From assembly GCA_050575255.1 (NCBI GenBank), contig JBNZDD010013714.1:6127478-6191477 (forward strand): 64,000 nt of DNA. Reading direction: 5' to 3'. The notes beneath the pieces are model-generated. The model worked only from the letters and a program-made list of their open reading frames with translations. It was not told where the DNA came from and searched no databases. The stretch comes from Harriotta raleighana. Taxonomy: Eukaryota. Both the position numbers and the translations under genes were made by a program. Of this stretch, positions 44,861 through 60,289 are shown piece by piece; positions within the stretch are counted from its first letter, which is position 1; every line of letters starts with the position of its first letter.

Positions 44861-45280
44861 TCAGCTTGGCTCATTGGTAGTACTCTCATCTGATCCCACT
44901 TCTGGACTTGAACTCACTTTGCGCAAGCTGACAATGCAGTGCTGAAGATATGTTGCATTGTTGGTTGTGCTGTTGTTCATATGAGACCTAGAACTGAGGT
45001 CCTGTCTGCCTGTTCAGGTGGATGTTAAAGATCCCATGGCACTATTCAAAAAGAGAAGGGAGTTTCTTCTGGTGACAACAATCCCCTAAACTAAAAAAAT
45101 TATCATTAATTTGGTCAGTCATAGCTGTTTGTGGAAAATTGATGGCTGTACACAATTGTGCTGCCATCTTTGCCTATAAATATACAGTTAATTCATTTCA
45201 CAGTCATTTCCGTGAAGCGCTTTGAGACATCCTTCCGACGTCATAAGGCGCTATATTAAATCAAGAATTATTATTATTAT
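44861..45280 (+). mobile_element. Near full-length tRNA-derived DeuSINE (SacSINE1/AmnSINE1-related)
   Basis: A-box TGGCTCATTGG, with the B-box region apparently deleted. Deu-domain-like ATGAGAC..AACTGAGGTCCTGTCTGCCTGTTCAGGTGGATGTTAAAGATCCCATGGCACTATTC. Tail GTGAAGCGCTTTGAGACATCC...AAGGCGCTATAT..(ATT)n. Confidence 0.85.
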
Positions 45281-48200: not shown

Positions 48201-48819
48201 ATAATTGTTACTTTGAGTTTATATCGCCGCCACAGTAAAATTGCTCTGAAATGTTTGGGTTGTTAATTCAACTTTCCGATGCCAGCAGAATAAAAGACTG
48301 TGACTGTGTTAGCAATCTTTAGAGCATATAATGTTCAGTATAAAATGTGTCGCACTTCAGTGCACAAACTCTCTGGTAGTTTTATTTCTCCATTCAAATA
48401 GTGCAGCTGGCAAACCATTTGTTCTTCACTAGACAGATTTTCCTTTTTGATCTGTGTACTGTGAAGGAGTCATTGAAATTAGGTGATATGTGCAACATTA
48501 CAACACATGGCCTGGATTCACAAGACTCAACTGGAGATGCACTGGACATTCACTTCAAGGTGCTACCAGCTGATCCTTAATGAACAGCCAAAAGGGTCTT
48601 GCAAACAGCTCAAGGAAGAATAAAGGAAAACATACACAAAACACTTCTAACATACAAAGTTTTTTTTTTAGAATCTTGATGAGAAACAAGTTGTGCTCCT
48701 GATTTTTGCTTCACATTAAAGTTGCACAACTCGTTTTAAATGACACACTAACTGATTAAATGATTTTTTTTATTCCTGTATAAAGTTGAACTCAGAAGTT
48801 TTCTTAGTTGAAAAAAAGG

Positions 48820-48950
48820 CAAAGTAATACAGATGCTGCAAATCTAGTATAAACACAGAAATTGCTGGGAACACGCAGCAGGTCAGGCAGTGTCTATGGA
48901 GAGGGAAAAATTAGTTAAAGTTTCCATTCTATGACCCTTTGTCAGAACAG
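48820..48950 (-). mobile_element. Single arm of the Penelope-type palindromic element
   Basis: CAGATGCTG..AATCT..ACAGAAATTGCTGGGAACACGCAGCAGGTCAGGCAG..TCTATGGAGA..GACCCTTTGTCAGAAC matches the 26108 element. Strand is given by the hammerhead-sense orientation. Confidence 0.8.
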
Positions 48951-51900
48951 TTTTTTAAGTTGCACTGCTACAGATGAATACATTTTGAAGAAGGACCAGG
49001 AGATTGTTGACTTGTATCTGATATGAAACTGCACTCATCATAGCTGAGGAAACCACTGGCAAGGCAAATAGCTCAATATTGTAATATTTTTCGCTCAGAT
49101 TAACTTCTCAGTGTCCTGAAACAGGACACCGAGAAAGGCTGTGCTTTAACAGATAGCAATAAATAGTAAAAATATAGATTTGGTGTGAAAAAAAATCTCT
49201 CTTCCCAAATCCCTCTGTCTCAAACACTCCCTCTTGCCTTTCAAAGCTTGTCCAAAAATTTGTTTCTTTGACTAAACTTACGGCCATCTCCTGCTGTTCT
49301 CTCAGCTCAGGCTGCCTCCTACTGAGCCTGGATGTTAGTTTCCTCAGGTATAATGCGAGCACAGTTTTGTATCAGATATAGGTCAACAGTTTGCTGGTCA
49401 CTTTGTAAAGTACTTTGAGACTTCCTTGTAGAGCAAAAGCAAGTTGTATACTACAAATTGTCATTGAAAGTTAGCTTTCTGGAAATAATTTGCCATGCTT
49501 TATGAGATGAATGAAATTTAATAAGCTTTATCTGCTAGAGTGATAATACAGAGAACCTCCTGCATTTTTTTCAAATCAGGTGATACCAGGAGAAAATGGA
49601 GATCAGAATGGGGGTTGGTATTTGAGGTTCATAACTAACATATGCATGAAATGTGGACACCTCGATTGGATGCCACAATATCAAGGGCCCCAGAGCAAGA
49701 ATAAACATGGACCCAGATCTCTGTGTGTTCGCAGATGTGGGACTGGCAAAATGATTCTTTTCCTCATGTTAGTAGCAATGCATCTTCTTATGATAGCTTG
49801 GAGGTGCAGGCAAGCAGCATCTGCCTCCCCTGGGAGAATACAATTACTAGAGAATATAGTTGATATTCAGATGTTATGTAATCAAATTTGAGGAGGGGTG
49901 GATGGAGTCAGTCCTTTTCCGGGTTTTAGAAAATGATGGTCCTTTACTATGACGTTGGTTAATAATGTGTTTTGAAAAAGAAAAGAGGGCTGATACTGCA
50001 AAGGATTTTGTGGATGGATCTTTGCTAGGCACAGTTGATTCAATAATTTGTTTCAATAATTTGTTCCTCAATACTGTTTTATATATGTTTGCCTTTTGGT
50101 GCATGTTCAGTGAGATATTCAGTGAGATTAGGGTGTGGGAGGAGTTTATTGGTGTTGCATTTCAAGCTGTTACAATCTTTATATAAGCTTAAAAAGCAAC
50201 AAATGATATACAGTATCTCTCTTCATATTTTGTTCAAGTTCTCCCATTATGTCGATCACATTTTACATGAAGAAGTGTAACATTTAGTTAATTTTAGAAG
50301 ATTCTAAATTTCATCAGATTTTTTTTCCTCCAGCCAAAAAACTGAGTGCATTAATCAATACAAAGCATCAACAAAACACCACGGGTGATTTTTTGCTTTG
50401 ATCTATGTAACTACTTCCTGCTATTAGGTCAAAGATAATACATGGGATAAACCTATTGTTCACCACCAGCTTACTCTTGAAGATCAAGCCACGCCATTCT
50501 TATTAAAGCTTTGACAAATGGTAATGGGTAACGGCGTTTCTTAGTTGTGGTTTCTTCTTCATGAGGGATTGAAAAAAATATTGATCTAATGTCATTGGGT
50601 TGGAGATATGTAGATATTAACCATTGTGACCAATATATTTTCTGTATTTTCAAAGCTGAGACACAGCAGAGACTTTTCGGATTCTTGGTTGTTAATTATT
50701 TATCATGTCCTACCACTCTTATGATCTTAAATTATTTAAGACTGCCTGGCATCTTTTTTCCTTGCTTCAGAGTACTTTATCAAAATTCTTGAACGATTAA
50801 TGGGATCACAACCAATTGAGTTTCTCTCTTTTTTTTTCTCCTATAAAGTTTTTTCACCCACTAAAAAAAATCATGCTTCTATTTGTCTCTAGTACCCACT
50901 TTAATGTTCAGTGCTGTTAGACATATCTTGGGCTTTCTGCAGTTTGAAGTTTTGGTGGTTTGGGCAATGTGGCTCTGTGGTCTTCCATTTCTTTCCTGCT
51001 ACAAAGCCACAAAACTGTTTCCAACTCTTTGAAAAACAATACAGTGCTTAAGAGCAAATGCTGTACTCCATAATGCAAGTTTGTTTTAAAACCTTGGAAA
51101 GCTAACACATTGATCCGAACAGACAGGTATGGTACCTGTAACTATCAGACTGATAGAGCTTTCAGTGACAGCAGAGAAAACATACCCCCAAAGTTTGGGT
51201 CTCATATCGGCCCCATGCCCAAACCTCAGGCAAAGACTCGTGCTCTTTGGTGCCCCATTGGCCTACTTAACCACATTCATTTCATTTCTTATGTTATGAT
51301 TCCTTCCCAAATGTTTTTTTCACAGGGAAGTTGCTGTATAAATGTAAGTTGTGCAGGCATTGAAAAGAGATTGGGGAAGAAAGTCGACTGCCATTTTGGA
51401 TCGAATCAGATCTATGCCAGAGTGAGTTTATTGCAGTACCACATTAACCCATATTATTATTTTTATGACATGAATTCACACCACTGGAAAATATTGAGGG
51501 AAAATATCAATTGAATATTGTTTTGATATTAAGGCACTTTTAACTTTGCCTGTTGGGCACACAAAATGAAAAAAAATGGTCAAATAGAAATAATTGTTAA
51601 GCGAGTATGGTTTTTTTCACTGACCAATGCATTTCTTTAAAAAAAACTTCCAAGAACATGTCTGCAAACAATAATCTGCTCTATATTCTGATTGAATCTA
51701 TTTCAGATAAGATCAGCTAGGTGGTTTATGTGTACACAAAAAAAAACTTCATAATGCCAAGGTAATTGTGAATGTGAAATAATTTAAAGAAAAAAGTACT
51801 AAAGGTCAAAAAAGGAAGACAAAAGGCATATTGGTCTCTCGCAAAATGCAAATAGCCTCATTCAGGAGAAGAATCTCAGTTATAAGAGAGAAATTGAAGA

Positions 51901-53032: not shown

Positions 53033-53110
53033 ACAACAACAACAATATTACCCTTTCACATCGGGAGGACGTCCCAAAGCGCTGAACAGTCAGATCAGGA
53101 CCCAAATGGG
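53033..53110 (-). mobile_element. L2-type 3' tail with (CAA)n, reverse orientation
   Basis: CTTTCACATCGGGAGGACGTCCCAAAGCGCTGAACAGTCA is the reverse complement of the tail seen at 30265-30302 and 60215-60255. Confidence 0.72.
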
Positions 53111-53514: not shown

Positions 53515-53590
53515 AGTCAAGTGTTTTGAGATTTCCCCTGACATGAAAGGTGCCATATCAAATGCAAAAATTATTATTTATTATTATTGT
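53515..53590 (+). mobile_element. SINE/L2 tail fragment
   Basis: GTGTTTTGAGATTTCCCCTGACATGAAAGGTGCCATATCAAATGCAA followed by an (ATT)n-like tail. Confidence 0.65.
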
Positions 53591-53703
53591 TTGAAGGAAA
53601 CAATTTCATGAGTTTACTGGTATAATAACTCAGTAGTAGGTCAGAAGCTAGTGGGGTTAGATTGATACACCAGTCAAAAATATGATTATTAATTAACCAG
53701 CAT

Positions 53704-53845
53704 GTCAATGTTTCGGGTCCACGTCTCTTCATCAGAATGTTCTGATGAATGGTCGTGGAGCCCAAACGTTGAGTCACTTTTTCTTTCTCCATAGATGCTG
53801 TCTGACTTGTTGAGTGTTCTCAGCGATTTCTGGTTTTGTTTTAGA
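53704..53845. mobile_element. Penelope-type palindromic element: truncated left arm, longer right arm, two back-to-back hammerhead-like motifs
   Basis: Centre TTCATCAGAA-TG-TTCTGATGAA (53728-53749). Plus strand: CUGAUGA-A-UGGUC-GUG-GAGCC-CAAA-CGUU. Minus strand: CUGAUGA-A-GAGAC-GUG-GACCC-GAAA-CAUU. The right arm matches 26215-26300. Confidence 0.82.
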
Positions 53846-56699
53846 AACAAAACTACGTTGATGCATATCAATAACTTCGATTTTACCATGTTGATGAACC
53901 CCTGGTTCAACAGTCTCCATGGCTGTTGTGGCCTGTGCTTACATCATTTGCCATTTTGTTATAAAGCTGTAAAAGTATAATCTGCTTGAGGCTGGTTGCT
54001 TGTAATGATTGTATGTTTGTGTTCATACTTTTGTTTTCATTATTGCTAAATATTAAATATCATTGCACAGATAGTGAAATTAACAATATCTGTGGAATAT
54101 TGGCTGCATGTTTCTGCCCTAAAATATTGCTAATGATGTACTATTCCAACTAATTATCCATTCTTAGACATAACCAGGTTTATTTCTTAAACCGCGAGAT
54201 AGGCCTTGGATGGATGTCCAAATATTTTTCTTGTACAGTAACCAACTTTCACACACATTGTTTGCAACAAATGTGTAAAGCTGAGTCAACCTATGTTGGA
54301 CTTTATTTTTCTTAAATGTAAGGCAGTGCCCACTCGTTGTTTTCTTGCTTGTGATATTTGTGCTAAAGTGATTGCAAACAGAATGACTTAAAACCGATTC
54401 AGAATTTAGTTTTGTCCTTTTTATATAATGACACTCGGGAGTTTGAATAATGGTGTCCATTAATATGTTCATTGAGGGTCACTACATTCATTCATTGCCC
54501 ATATCACATGTCCTTTCAATGAGATCAGTTCCATCAGCTGTCACATTCGATTAAAAATATCCCATAGATCCACTGACCACCTGACAGTAGAGAAACTTAA
54601 AACCATACACCCACAATTAGCATTATAAAATGGGCGATCAACTGGAATGAATGATGGTGTAAGAGAACAGAAAATGGATTGAAATTTGAAAAGACCCTGA
54701 TGAAGTCTCCTTGGAAATTGCAGCAATAGACCAGAAAACATATGCATAGATATTATGGGAAAGCAAAGCTGTCAATAGCAGGTTGTTTCTGTGTAATTAT
54801 AAACAGCCGCGATTTGATAAAACTAGACTAAATACTACCGAACTAAACATCTGAAAGGAATTTTAATGAATTCCTGCAAGGTTAGAAAACCACAGCCATT
54901 AATAATCTTGCACAATGAAAGTCTTCACCACATTAAATTGGATACCATAATCATGGACCAAAGGCATCACACATTTGTATTTTATTATCCAGAGTTAGAG
55001 AGCTACGTTTCACTAAATCTTTTTATTTCCTTTTTCTAAATTAAATGTGTTGATTCTGCTTTAGTTCTGCTCTGAATTGGTTAAACTGATTTAACTGTTG
55101 GCAACATAGAGTTAGAACCATCTTTCATCGAAAGGTCTTGAAAATATGTAACAAGTGAATAGTCAATCGCTTAGGGATTAGTCAAAATGCTCTATATTGG
55201 ATAAAACCATTTGATTACCAGCATGCTCAGGGAAATATCTCTGTAGTGTATGCGCTTTGACACTTAAGGAAACCCCAGTACTGTAATACATAAATCAAGC
55301 TGCGAAGAATTGGCAAGAATTTTTTTTAAAATTGGAATATTAATTCTGGGGATATCCAAAAATGAAAAACTTTGGAAAACTATGAGACCACGATAAGATG
55401 GTGGGTTAGCAGTGCCACACTCTATGCTGGTTCCAGTCTGACATAAGAGATCCTTCATAGGGCACTGCAGAACTGACTTCCAAATGCAGGTAAATAGATG
55501 TTGTAACTTTTAACCTCAGTGCCTGGGACTGGGATGTCATTACAGTATATTTGTAGATTGTTTTTAAAAAAATGCAATTATTTTCTCCCAGGTACTTTCC
55601 AGATTCCTTGATCTGGAAAACCTTTAGATATGCCTTTAGAATAAAAGGCAGTGCACAAATAGGGAATGACGTAATACAATGTGGTAGTCTTAAATTAATG
55701 GGCACCACAGTGTTTTTTTGCCCCACATTTTTGGCTCATTGTTTTAAAATATTTCTATTTATACCTAAAGACTGACAATGAATTCTTTGCCACTTTCCTT
55801 CGAGTACTTTTCTCAAATATGAAAAGATTAGAAGTAACTAAGCAAGTATAATTTTTCTCAAGTTTCACATATGTCTGCTTTATTGCACCACTTACATTTA
55901 TATACTGTAGTACAATGGCAGGTTAAGTATTCCTTTAATCCGTCTGGGTAATGAGTGCATTAAAAAAGCTTCAGATAATCAATAGCACATTAATACACAT
56001 AAAATATGTACAAATTGATTTTTTTTTCCCATTGCTTTGCCTTCCGATGCCGAAGACAGAAGCCACAATCAAAAGATCAAAAATAAGTGAATGTGCTTCA
56101 TAAGCACTATAAATCTTGAAGTGAAAAGCTGTGGCAGCTTTGTTGCGTGCCAGCCAGGCAATTCAAATATCAGATACTGAACTGTTTTGATGTTATTATA
56201 GTATTAAAGTGAAAAGCTTTTTCAGTATTTAAAGGGCGGCAGGATTCCGAAAGATAAAGCACTCTTCTATTACTGGTTACCCAACCGATCAGAGTTTTTT
56301 TTATGAATGACCAAATAATAGATCAAAGATCTTTTCCTGGTGAGTTCTGACAATTGTCTGTTGGGTTAGAGACCTTCTGCATGAATTTTGTCCAGTGATA
56401 CCTCGCACTCCTCATACTTCCCTTATCTCTCTCTCTTCCCTGCCTGAGGGTGGTGAACGATCCTGGACTGTGGTTCTACAAGTATTAGTCACTGTCTAGG
56501 ATTTTGTCCACGTGCCTGTTTTTTTTTGCAAGCCTGAAAAGTGTTTGTGGGCTCTGCGGCTCGAGAAAGATTACGAGTTCAGTTTGACACNAGATTACGA
56601 GTTGAGTTTGACACCATCCTAACCTCAAAATCATACATAAGCACCTACGTGATTAGATATTTGGTGACGATTCAGAGCAGGAACACTGGCTAAATGTTG

Positions 56700-56878
56700 A
56701 GGTCATTGTGATCACTTCAATTTATGACTGTTTGTGGGACACTGCTGTGTGCAATTGGCTGCCATGTTTCGCCCATAAATATAGTCAATTCACTTTACAG
56801 TCTATTCTGTGAAGCGCTTTGAGATTTCTAGAAGACATGAAAAGTGCTATATCAAATGCAAGAATTATTATTATTATT
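56700..56878 (+). mobile_element. SINE 3' part (same family as 9868-10075)
   Basis: ATGACTGTTTGTGGGACACTGCTGTGTGCAATTGGCTGCC...GTGAAGCGCTTTGAGA...TATATCAAATGCAAG..(ATT)n. Confidence 0.88.
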
Positions 56879-59800
56879 TGCATTAAGGATCCAATTTATC
56901 AATTGAGCCAGACTAATATCAAAGTGTTCCAAAGTACATTATCAACATGATTCCCTTCACCACTATTTTAATCTAAACTGCTTGGTGACTAAAGTCCTTC
57001 ACGTGGTAAATACAGATACATTCAGCAATTTTGGAATAAATATATGCCAGCTCTTCTTTTCTTTGGTATAGAAAGGCTACTGTAATTCTAATAACTTATT
57101 AGCATTTGGCAATGCTTTCAGGCATGAGGATATCAGACAACATTTTTAACAAACCTGCTGACAGTCCATCCCTTTTAAAGGGAAATGTCAAATGTGAACC
57201 TTTTGCTTATTGCTAATGTTTGGGTCATTTGGTGGAAACATTAGACATTCTGCAACGTAGCTATTAGCGGCAAATAAAGGTCAGGTAGAGGTCAGTTGTC
57301 ACAAAGCAATTGCAGGGATGATGTTTGATGAATAATTCTCTTCATGAAAGTTCTTGCAAAAAAAAGCACAATATATTGACCATAGTAACTTACATTTTCA
57401 AAGTGTTTGCCTCATAGACAAATAATTTTTCTATTGGCACGTGTTCCTGAAAGCAATAATACAATCCCATCAGTTTTCTAAAGTCTAAAATGTGTGATAA
57501 TTGATGAGAACAATTGCTATATCTTACACTTGCAGTTCTCAAGTCCACTGTACCTGATGAAGATATAGTCCTGACCTCCTTTCCTGACTGGCCCCACTTT
57601 TACTTACCATTGAGCCCTAACCTTACTATCTTCTCTGGCAACTTCACAGTCCACTTAACCCCAGTCTTAACCCACTTATTGGCCGTGCTCTCTTCACCAG
57701 CTCTCTTTTGCATCTTATAAGATCTTGACTTCCCTTTTCCAACCAGCTCAGTTCTAACTTGCTCATTTTCCCACAAGTTGATTTCACATTCCGACAATGT
57801 GATAAGAAGAATATATCAAATGTATGGATTATTATATTCAAACAAGCTACTGTTTAGCTGTGCCTCTTGCTCTGCCTATACCTACTATCTGATCACCATC
57901 TCTGTGTGATTTGCATTAGCTCTAATACCAATGATGCTCCCTGCTGTATTCAGATCACCAGACACAGCTGTCCAGTGTAAATATTACAGCATCACTGTCT
58001 GAATGTCAGTCTTCTGGATACTTGGACACTAATGGCTCATTACATGAATAATAAATGAGTTACAAAAACGCTGTAAAAACGTGAGTCTATCCCACTTGTG
58101 GATTTTAGCTCAATGAATTACTTGATAACGAGTTGTAAAATACAGTCTTCATATTGCAGTGGAATCCTTTAATCATCAGCTGTTTATTTGTTTGGAATAT
58201 TTTGTGTTTCCAGGTTGAGTATAGCATGACAAGATGCAAAGTAAAACTCCCTTCACTCAATTATTAATTTAAGCCAAAACTATGGCCAGTTTCTTTTGTG
58301 TGTATGTGTGTATTCACACCTAGTGCTGAGACTACTGTCGACAATATTTTATGCAACCACAAAAACTTATTCAGGCGACATGTCTGCGATAAATTTCATC
58401 TCAGGCCCTGCAAATTGAACGAATCTCAGGCTCTTCTAGATTACATTTTCCCTTCCAATACATCTCTAGTGATGTCATGCTTCCGCTTTGGCTCAGACAC
58501 TGAGGTGAAGGTAATCTAAATCAGACGTTTTAGCTGCCAATACTCTTAATTGGTCAACAGAAGAATCTTCCATTTCTCTTCCTTTGAGATGTAGGGGCCT
58601 GTACCTAACAGTACGCCATCTAGTAACCTGGGAAAAAAGAGAAGCTTTCCATTAGGGAACATTTGACAGAAGACCTGGGATTTTTACTTATACGGTATCT
58701 CCAAATAGACTGCTTCCTTTTCATGGCATCTATTTTGCTTGTAAGATAGTACAAATGACTAACCTATTAGATAACCCAACTGTTCATTGTTTTTTGCAAT
58801 TTATTATACATTTTTTTGGGCATCAACTCCTGCACAGATCTTGAGTCCGCCTCTGCGATAGTGTTTGAATGTTTCTGTGTAATGATCTGTTGCAACAACG
58901 CAGCCAACTTAAGAGGGAAGCATAGCCTGCAGTAGATTGTGGATTGCGATGTTTATGTCAGAAATGCAACAAGAATTTCTTGATCAAAGGGGTTACTTTT
59001 AACTGGAAAGATGGTTTGCACTACCACAAAAATTGCCTCATTAACATTGTATTTTTTAACTTGCATGTTATTCTGAGTGGGACATTAGAATTGTGTTTAG
59101 TGTGTGTGTATGTGTGTGGAAAAAAAAGACCAATTGACCATGAGCAATCCTAAGGTTATGGCTTATTGGAGTGCAATAATGAAGAACTACTATATTTATA
59201 TTACTTTTTTGAGCCCGAAGGGCCTTCTTCATCCGAATCTTGTGATCTGTAATTTCACAGTCAAACTTCAAAGGAGGTGATTTTTGAAGATAAATGCAGT
59301 TGAAATATGTTCATATTGTCAGAGTTGGATGAAATATTTACAAAAAAAATCAGTTGTCAGGAGACATTCATTGATATTTTTAATTCTGCCTCTTGCTAAT
59401 CTCCTAAAATCGTTCATAATTACATCTGCCAGCCTGATCGAATACGATTACCTTTAAATTAGTTGGGTGAATTACATTCATGTTCATAATTTTTTTTAAA
59501 TGTTCACTGAATCAGTAAGCATATAATCATCTTGAATTAGCTTGGTTGCATCACATTATACAGTGGTGGATATCGGCTGGTGGTGGGGCAGGGGGAAGAT
59601 GCTGTGATTTGCAGTGCACAGATGTTTGTCACTCTGACAGCATGCTGTTCTGCTCACTGGCAAACACCCAGATTGTTTTTAGCTGGAAATCATACAAGGG
59701 CGCATTATGCATGAAAGTGTGACTCATTTGTCATTCGCTCTTCCTCTTCACAGACACACATGAAGCTGCATTGAAAAGGGTTAAAATAAAGACCATAAGG

Positions 59801-60159: not shown

Positions 60160-60289
60160 ACCCTCCTTTCCCTCCACCCTCTCCGATCCCGACCCCAGCT
60201 CGGGTCTGAAACTCTTAACTATCCAGCGCCTTGGGATGTCCTCCCGACATGAAAGGAGCTATACAACTGTAATTTTGTTGTTGTTGTTA
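60160..60289 (+). mobile_element. L2-type 3' end with (TTG)n tail
   Basis: C-rich tract, then CAGCGCCTTGGGATGTCCTCCCGACATGAAAGGAGCTATA..(TTG)n. Confidence 0.72.

What the first reader, a model, noticed from the sequence alone, without database searches (positions are those of the whole stretch)
53704..53845. Back-to-back hammerhead ribozyme cores at the centre of a dispersed palindromic element
Seen: five related arms (26173-26208 minus, 26209-26235 plus and truncated, 48912-48948 minus, 53704-53737 minus, 53740-53773 plus). Their majority consensus is AGUU-CUGAYGA-A-GGGUC-GUG-GACCC-GAAA-CG-UU-GACU. This has the hammerhead core CUGANGA/GAAA/UH, a 5-bp stem II, a 4-bp stem I and a palindromic ACGU helix III. 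Established: minimal type-I hammerheads with a palindromic helix III, which work as dimers, occur in the terminal repeats of Penelope-like retroelements. Inference: these are non-autonomous or collapsed Penelope-type inverted termini with one ribozyme on each strand. Each copy here has at least one damaging change (G8 loss, G12 to C or A, broken stem II), several compatible with CpG decay, so intact members are probably elsewhere in the genome.
Basis: partly seen in the sequence, partly recalled or inferred. Interest (0 to 1): 0.8.

Follow-up and report, generated by a model that had tools for sequence, protein, structure and literature searches.

The report
Decayed Penelope retroelement ends in chimaera
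These are worn-out ends of a very common jumping gene in a chimaera (a cartilaginous fish); each end carries a small self-cutting RNA motif, and the mirror-image pairs are a known by-product of how such elements insert, so the finding is real but largely ordinary.

Summary
The five arms exist. They belong to a dispersed family of roughly 130-nt units (at least 14 per Mb) in a holocephalan genome, downstream of Sall1. Loose-end consensus from one read run and three contig sets restores the intact minimal type-I hammerhead (CUGACGA, 5-bp stem II, GAAA, ACGU, 4-bp stem I); every local copy is damaged, and CpG decay hits catalytic G12 (20%) at least as hard as a loop G (18%), so the family is decaying. 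The layout matches Penelope-like element (PLE) ends: a tail on one arm only, an 8-10 bp duplication around the 26.1-kb pair, one fixed and one variably truncated inner end. In other animals the same core lies 42-164 nt behind PLE-like ORFs (25 of 100 loci). Back-to-back pairs cannot form the cis dimer: transcripts fold into one long hairpin. At 53.7 kb the left arm is only the 34-nt core. Opposite-strand hammerheads and head-to-head PLE palindromes are published. No autonomous chimaera partner could be linked, and cleavage is untested. Real, a new member of a known kind, modest interest.

The parts
53704..53739 (-). Left arm of locus B: minimal hammerhead core only (core bases intact, stem II 3 of 5 pairs, G16.2A; predicted cut between 53707 and 53706); the rest of the arm is missing
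53739..53773 (+). Right-arm hammerhead of locus B (CUGAUGA at 53742-53748; G12C at 53763; stem II 3 of 5 pairs; predicted cut after 53770)
53774..53843 (+). Arm body of locus B, 60/70 to the five-arm majority, no tail, no target duplication found
26108..26212 (-). Locus A left arm: hammerhead 26173-26208 (G8 deleted, otherwise family-like; predicted cut between 26177 and 26176) plus body, no tail
26210..26296 (+). Locus A right arm: inverted copy truncated at the start of stem II, G12A; GGG at 26210-26212 can be read as either arm (microhomology), 12 nt between the arms
26297..26334 (+). Tail of about 30-38 nt, on this arm and on locus C only; matches the family's loose-end consensus
   Evidence: (8742 reads)
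26098..26107 (+). Left copy of the likely target-site duplication of locus A (8/8, or 9/10 with the next two bases)
   Evidence: score reached by 2 of 1433 (strict) and 13 of 1445 (relaxed) random site pairs
26335..26344 (+). Right copy of the likely target-site duplication of locus A
48822..48949 (-). Locus C: solo arm with tail and a degenerate hammerhead (48912-48949); possible decayed duplication 48798-48810 / 48950-48962 (11/13, T-rich, weak)

Best explanation
The arms are fossil 3' ends (pseudo-LTR: minimal type-I hammerhead, about 70 nt of body, optional tail) of an abundant endonuclease-bearing Penelope-like retroelement of chimaeras. Shown: the unit, its abundance, the intact family motif, neutral-looking decay, the one-sided tail, the duplication at A, and that inner junctions have one fixed and one variable side. 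Inferred from PLE biology: the element's protein nicked AT-rich DNA and began reverse transcription at one of two internal sites about 90 and 120-130 nt downstream of the hammerhead (giving no tail or tail), and often stopped just 5' of helix I; the cDNA end then sometimes folded back on itself, or a second cDNA was joined head to head, giving a palindrome with one hammerhead per strand. In the active element two same-strand hammerheads of a tandem transcript would pair their ACGU palindromes into two 4-bp helices III and cut after GUU, probably with protein help. The genomic back-to-back pairs are insertion by-products: any transcript carries one sense and one antisense copy, which zip into a long hairpin, and the local copies have lethal changes as well.
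For: Family motif: reads that stop at 26199 (5790 of 30,888 laid, run X17) continue with the reverse complement of AGUU-CUGACG, and so do contigs of three further organisms; 6438 of 9253 reads restore the stem II C at 26193; among the listed substitutions in the motif all others are C>T/G>A (10 rows not shown). Tail: 8742 reads continue past 26108 with the tail; PMC8557442 and PMC11167929 describe a 30-40 nt optional tail on one end as a PLE signature. Junctions: opposite-strand joints have 26199 on one side and 26145-26199 on the other (7 of 8 listed joints with X17 reads); PMC3846280 calls head-to-head palindromic junctions the most frequent form and reports 8-10 bp duplications. Same core beside PLE-like ORFs in other animals: 30 of 100 loci hit by 120 RT-bearing proteins, 25 with a same-strand ORF ending 42-164 nt upstream; L068 has the core in front of an intact 902-aa ORF with RT, L038 and L029 behind GIY-YIG; 26 of 90 such matches have an inverted partner within 600 nt. 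A bamboo shark protein is 52% identical to the L068 ORF (P0235). Folding: stem II pair probability 0.0 for the sense hammerhead in all five locus transcripts that hold one. Decay: G12 20.2%, loop G 17.8%.
Against: No PLE ORF remnant in the window (0 hits at E 0.05 from 120 proteins; best profile hit E 0.63) and no genome to search, so the autonomous partner is not linked. The metagenome loci were picked by a pattern drawn from these arms, share only the core (downstream similarity not above shuffles), and many are near-duplicates. Two of three loci here are head-to-head, more than the 4-5% seen in reads; the read figure is a lower bound (192 joints unlisted, short clipped ends) and the true share may be much higher. 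X17 shares only a species label with the best holder (0.41 of words) and its depth on the unique flank was 0-1, so it may be a close relative rather than the window's species. The perfect part of the duplication at A is 8 bp, also typical of hAT transposons (recalled). Locus B has no duplication. No cleavage was tested.
Confidence: 0.8

Rival explanations
1. The palindrome itself is the master unit: a non-autonomous element with one ribozyme on each strand that processes both polarities, as in some viroid-like RNAs, and is copied whole.
For: 2 of 3 loci in the window are head-to-head; core-to-core is the largest single listed joint class (116 reads at 77 starts); contigs of three organisms bridge an A-like centre (table 8); locus A is bounded by one duplication.
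Against: A and B have different centres; joints vary over 26145-26199; listed inversions are 266 reads against 5790 that run on into unlike sequence; the full-length transcript folds into a hairpin with stem II probability 0.0.
Confidence: 0.07
2. A short hammerhead-bearing SINE- or retrozyme-like family moved by a non-PLE reverse transcriptase (for example CR1/L2), the inversions being twin-priming products.
For: Most reads diverge within about 10 nt upstream of the core (agreement 0.47-0.54 over 30 loose letters), as for a short unit with its own 5' end; no PLE ORF nearby; CR1-like LINEs and their SINE dominate the elephant shark genome (PMC1845163).
Against: No tandem array of the unit in the window, no tRNA-like head tested or seen in the arm, no simple-repeat 3' end; the optional tail and this core type are PLE features. 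The preprint 10.64898/2026.07.22.740005 derives animal retrozymes from PLE pseudo-LTRs anyway.
Confidence: 0.07
3. A MITE of a DNA transposon (hAT-like) whose inverted repeats happen to resemble a hammerhead.
For: About 190-bp palindrome with a perfect 8-bp flanking repeat at A.
Against: Ends are asymmetric (tail on one side), solo arms exist, truncation is at the centre and not the ends; all core boxes, stem II, stem I and the ACGU palindrome are present in the family; the elephant shark mobilome is described as almost exclusively retroelements (PMC4350176).
Confidence: 0.04
4. The 53.7-kb or 26.1-kb copies were co-opted as regulatory hairpins or ribozymes near Sall1.
For: They lie in the Sall1 neighbourhood; the insertion at A appears shared with organism B (one contig runs from the flank 21 nt into the arm).
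Against: Each copy has core or stem damage; B has lost most of one arm; they lie 8.7 and 36 kb past the stop codon; density is what a common repeat gives.
Confidence: 0.02

Closest known systems
Minimal type-I hammerheads (min-HHR) of metazoan PLEs (PMC4209133; parts 1-2 of 4 read, supplements searched in part)
   Same: Type I, extra nucleotide between 9 and 10.1, G10.1-C11.1 pair, palindromic 15.2-16.2, 4-bp helix I, no helix III as a monomer, thousands of solo copies; dual motifs on opposite strands are reported there (100-700 bp apart in Schistosoma; one at the 5' end of a truncated PLE).
   Different: Stem II is 5 bp with a 3-nt loop; the pair here is 2-12 nt apart; no chondrichthyan appears in the text read or in the 2 supplement files searched.
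Inverted pseudo-LTRs with tail of EN+ PLEs: Penelope/Poseidon, Neptune (PMC3846280 and PMC8557442, passages; PMC11167929, parts 1-2 of 4)
   Same: Head-to-head inverted, 5'-truncated copy; tail on one end; 8-10 bp duplication; hammerhead about 90-120 nt from the 3' ends (RT starts at +111-118 from stem II in PAc).
   Different: Here nothing but the terminal unit is left; the ORF and clade are unknown (the nearest layout among fetched loci, L068, has a Cys-rich linker that I recall as Neptune-like; not tested).
[quoted passage not shown]
   Same: About 100-bp dispersed chondrichthyan repeat, about 1 per 10 kb in one BAC; its two probe primers match the arm in the right order (10-nt exact match over the end of stem II and GAAACGU, 21 of 2000 shuffles; second primer 163 of 2000, not significant).
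   Different: Never called a PLE or ribozyme in the passages read; reported as nurse-shark-specific by hybridisation; only the probe could be compared, so kinship is a lead.
Non-LTR retrozymes (10.64898/2026.07.22.740005, parts 1-3 of 5)
   Same: Type-I hammerhead, non-coding, derived from PLE pseudo-LTRs, reported in one chondrichthyan.
   Different: Defined by head-to-tail tandem units; the copies here are solo or inverted.

Membership tests
Minimal type-I hammerhead | CUGANGA and GAAA boxes, UH | tested here: met
   Met by the family; among local copies only 53704-53739 keeps all core bases
Minimal type-I hammerhead | Stem II with G10.1-C11.1 and stem I closing the motif | tested here: met
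   Family: 5-bp stem II in the MFE of the majority motif, AGUU/GACU stem I from reads. Not met at 53.7 kb (3 of 5 pairs on each arm)
Minimal type-I hammerhead | Compensatory changes in the stems | tested here: inconclusive
   None among the listed chimaera substitutions; in other animals helix I, which was outside the search pattern, pairs in 39 of 55 distinct flanks against a shuffled mean of 24 and maximum of 32, relatedness not removed
Minimal type-I hammerhead | Self-cleavage as a dimer | not testable with these tools
   Only the 4-bp ACGU duplex energy was computed (-1.7 kcal/mol)
Rfam hammerhead families | Covariance-model match | tested here: not met
   No hammerhead hit; but the models also missed the ORF-adjacent motifs in 5 of 5 control loci, so this says little
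EN+ Penelope-like element | RT plus GIY-YIG ORF joined to the repeat | tested here: inconclusive
   Absent from the window; no genome held; present beside the same core in other animals
EN+ Penelope-like element | Hammerhead in the terminal repeat | tested here: met
EN+ Penelope-like element | Optional 30-40 nt tail on one end | tested here: met
   On A right arm and C, not on A left arm or B
EN+ Penelope-like element | Head-to-head inverted, variably 5'-truncated copy | tested here: met
   Loci A and B; joints
EN+ Penelope-like element | Target duplication of about 8-10 bp where present | tested here: inconclusive
   Clear at A, weak at C, none at B
EN+ Penelope-like element | Partial tandem (direct pseudo-LTRs) | not testable with these tools
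   None in the window; needs the assembly
Non-LTR retrozyme | Head-to-tail tandem units each with a hammerhead | tested here: not met
   Nearest same-strand arms are 4.8 kb and 27.5 kb apart; elsewhere in the genome not tested
MITE / DNA transposon | Symmetrical terminal inverted repeats with fixed ends | tested here: not met
   One-sided tail, solo arm, variable centre

The most novel reading that the evidence does not exclude
[quoted passage not shown] If so, over ten thousand fossil junctions in slow-evolving chimaera genomes would read out how PLE 5' junctions and second strands are made, and show that uncut RNA is the template, since copies run through the ribozyme cut site.
Probability: 0.3. 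Interest if true: 0.55.

Novelty: new member of a known kind. Interest (0 to 1): 0.3.

Why it matters
It labels an abundant chondrichthyan repeat as a hammerhead-bearing PLE end; eight literature searches returned no paper describing this family in chimaeras, though Repbase/Dfam entries, subscription papers and the preprint's supplements could not be seen. How PLEs make head-to-head palindromes is called unresolved in PMC8557442 and PMC3846280, and this family offers many junctions to test it. The locus named in the finding is itself a dead copy with no sign of function.

Tried and rejected
Whole-genome search: no genome held. Rfam: no hammerhead hit, uninformative by the control. Viral contigs: 0 hits for two patterns. 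GTDB contigs: 3 hits to a 21-mer, nothing beyond the 21-mer, taken as chance. Metagenome scan: 100 stretches, none with the chimaera arm body (best profile hits E 1e-4 to 1e-3, core only or slightly beyond; three downstream regions tested were not above shuffles). PLE ORF remnants in the window: none. Reading frames through the A left arm are all interrupted. No RNA holder listed, so expression was not addressed. Earlier-findings look-ups returned nothing. The Lunse et al. paper on dimeric PLE hammerheads is not held; I saw only its title and the review's account. Depth falling towards the core (27,400 to 11,000) was not read as 5' truncation, because local indels in the reference copy at about 26169 and 26199 break the alignments. 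The idea that the two 53.7-kb cores form the active dimer was rejected: they are on opposite strands and fold into one hairpin.

Full report
Setting. The window holds a Sall1 gene (large exon 11964-15449, last exon ending 17447). The large exon is 97% identical to Callorhinchus milii Sall1 and 87-88% to catshark and manta, so this is a holocephalan. No genome is held. The three loci lie 8.7, 31 and 36 kb past the stop codon.

Observation. Self-comparison and a profile search give five arms at three loci and no more. Locus A (26108-26334) is a 190-bp palindrome at 87.5% plus a tail on the right; locus C (48822-48949) is a solo arm with tail; locus B (53704-53843), the finding's own, is a 34-nt left arm, a 2-nt spacer and a 105-nt right arm without tail. 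The left flank of B does not continue the arm (33/70 against 57-67/70). Taken alone the copies are weak: a descriptor finds no perfect motif, one with a single core mismatch (0.05 expected) and no more at two mismatches (1.0 expected); the B arms fail it.

The family. I laid one raw genomic run and three contig sets of related organisms on 25990-26240 at 80% likeness (4 of 19 listed runs). From 1,894 million letters, 30,888 reads were laid; depth peaks at 27,400 on the arm against 0-1 on the unique flank, i.e. 14.5 arms per Mb, about 13,000-16,000 for a 0.9-1.1 Gb genome (0.91 Gb is the elephant shark figure in PMC1845163). This is a floor: the window itself has four long arms in 64 kb. The run shares only a species label with the best holder, so it may be a close relative. 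Reads stop at 26199, where the window copy lacks G8, and 5790 of them continue with the complement of AGUU-CUGACG; the three contig sets agree (agreement over all 30 loose letters is 0.47-0.54; per-base agreement is not given). 6438 of 9253 reads restore the stem II base at 26193. The family motif is thus stem I AGUU/GACU, CUGACGA, an extra A, a 5-bp stem II with a GUG loop, GAAA, and ACGU followed by U17. Among the listed substitutions in the motif the rest are transitions, nearly all at CpG, 18-22% each; no row is listed for A13, A14, A15.1, U16.1, U17 or the inner stem II pairs (10 rows were not shown). Catalytic G12 is changed in 20.2% of reads and the loop G in 17.8%, so there is no sign of selection on the core in the genomic copies at large. 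Many copies should still keep an intact core (inference from these rates).

What kind of element. (i) 8742 reads run past 26108 into a 30-nt tail, which the window has on the A right arm and on C but not on the A left arm or B. An optional 30-40 nt tail on one end is a PLE signature (PMC8557442, passages), explained by two internal RT start sites (PMC11167929, parts 1-2); there the start lies 111-118 nt from stem II, here the ends lie about 90 and 120-130 nt from it. (ii) Locus A is bounded by an 8/8 (9/10) direct repeat; 2 of 1433 strict and 13 of 1445 relaxed random site pairs score as high. C has a weak T-rich candidate and B none. PMC3846280 reports 8-10 bp duplications around inverted pseudo-LTRs (passages). 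(iii) Opposite-strand joints have the full core on one side and a partner cut anywhere from 26145 to 26199 on the other. The listed joints total 266 reads, 116 of them core to core, against 5790 that run on into other sequence: 4% and 2%, lower bounds, since 192 joints are unlisted, about 290 further reads lie on the A right arm, and clipped ends are short. Two of three loci in this window are inverted, which suggests the true share is higher. (iv) A pattern for the core found 100 stretches in metagenome contigs, animal-like DNA unrelated to the chimaera arm beyond the core. 30 of 100 carry PLE-like ORF hits from 120 proteins, and in 25 a same-strand ORF ends 42-164 nt upstream of the core; L068 has the core ahead of an intact RT-bearing ORF, L038 and L029 behind GIY-YIG; 26 of 90 matches have an inverted partner within 600 nt. 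Many of these loci are near-duplicates and the pattern came from our arms. A bamboo shark protein is 52% identical to the L068 ORF, so such elements exist in chondrichthyans. Against: no ORF remnant in the window and no direct link in a chimaera genome.

How it works. As a monomer the motif has no helix III; two same-strand copies can pair ACGU with ACGU (-1.7 kcal/mol). That dimer mode, with low rates, is described for PLE motifs (PMC4209133; review PMC6765202); in PAc cleavage needs the element's protein and is dispensable for insertion in vitro; 8 of 9 frog dimers did not cut. The back-to-back pair is different: either transcript has one sense and one antisense copy, folds into one hairpin (-33 to -60 kcal/mol over about 82 nt) and gives stem II a pairing probability of 0.0. 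So the pair is a by-product of insertion, not a two-ribozyme device. At A, GGG at 26210-26212 belongs both to the family's upstream letters and to the start of the inverted arm, closing a 12-nt loop: what a cDNA end folding back to prime on itself would leave. PMC3846280 proposed self-priming on an antisense template for such palindromes. At B no such microhomology is evident, and the left arm's body was probably lost later (inferred).

Comparison and novelty. It works like a PLE pseudo-LTR with a minimal hammerhead and meets the terminal features I could test; the ORF link is open. It fails the tandem criterion of retrozymes within the window and the symmetrical-end criterion of MITEs. Rfam has no matching model, but also misses 5 of 5 control loci. 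Opposite-strand hammerheads are in print. The nurse shark repeat NSRE1 is a probable relative on probe evidence only. Eight searches found no description of this family in chimaeras; repeat databases, file 1 of the PMC4209133 supplement and the preprint's supplements were not seen and may list it. Verdict: real, a new member of a known kind, local copies dead; interest 0.3.

Noticed in passing
window 9868-10085, 10145-10227, 16001-16119, 26733-26917, 30154-30226, 32537-32756, 45125-45280, 53516-53606, 56709-56897: A second dispersed family (75-91% alike) ending in an (ATT)n run, SINE/LINE-like; one inverted pair at 9915-9978 / 10164-10227; one piece lies 100 nt left of locus B.
   Followed up: no
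window 266-509, 5073-5206, 20560-20683, 24931-25289: Near-identical tandem duplicates on either side of a single N (387, 5139, 20621, 25114): probably scaffolding artefacts.
   Followed up: partly
window 48994-49036 and 49357-49399: 43-nt inverted repeat (79%) 320 nt apart, just right of locus C; could be a small DNA-transposon relic.
   Followed up: no
window 53834-53852: The 3' end of the B right arm is followed by a short inverted copy of its last 9 nt.
   Followed up: no
window 26280-26320: The arm-tail boundary coincides with a pyrimidine run and CAG that look like a 3' splice site; a second CAG follows in the tail.
   Followed up: no
window 25990-26129: One contig of organism B runs from the unique flank into the arm, so insertion A seems older than the split from that organism (record 17).
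   Followed up: partly
window 26190 and 26170-26171: Variants at 30-40% in organisms B and C but under 10% (26190, 26171) in the raw run and organism E point to subfamilies.
   Followed up: no
L068 10-2899: [quoted passage not shown]
   Followed up: partly
L007, L032, L009, L070, L099 and others: Head-to-head hammerhead pairs with intact cores in invertebrate-like host DNA of metagenomes, 14-130 nt apart.
   Followed up: partly
window 30262-30323, 53054-53092, 60214-60275: A third small dispersed repeat.
   Followed up: no
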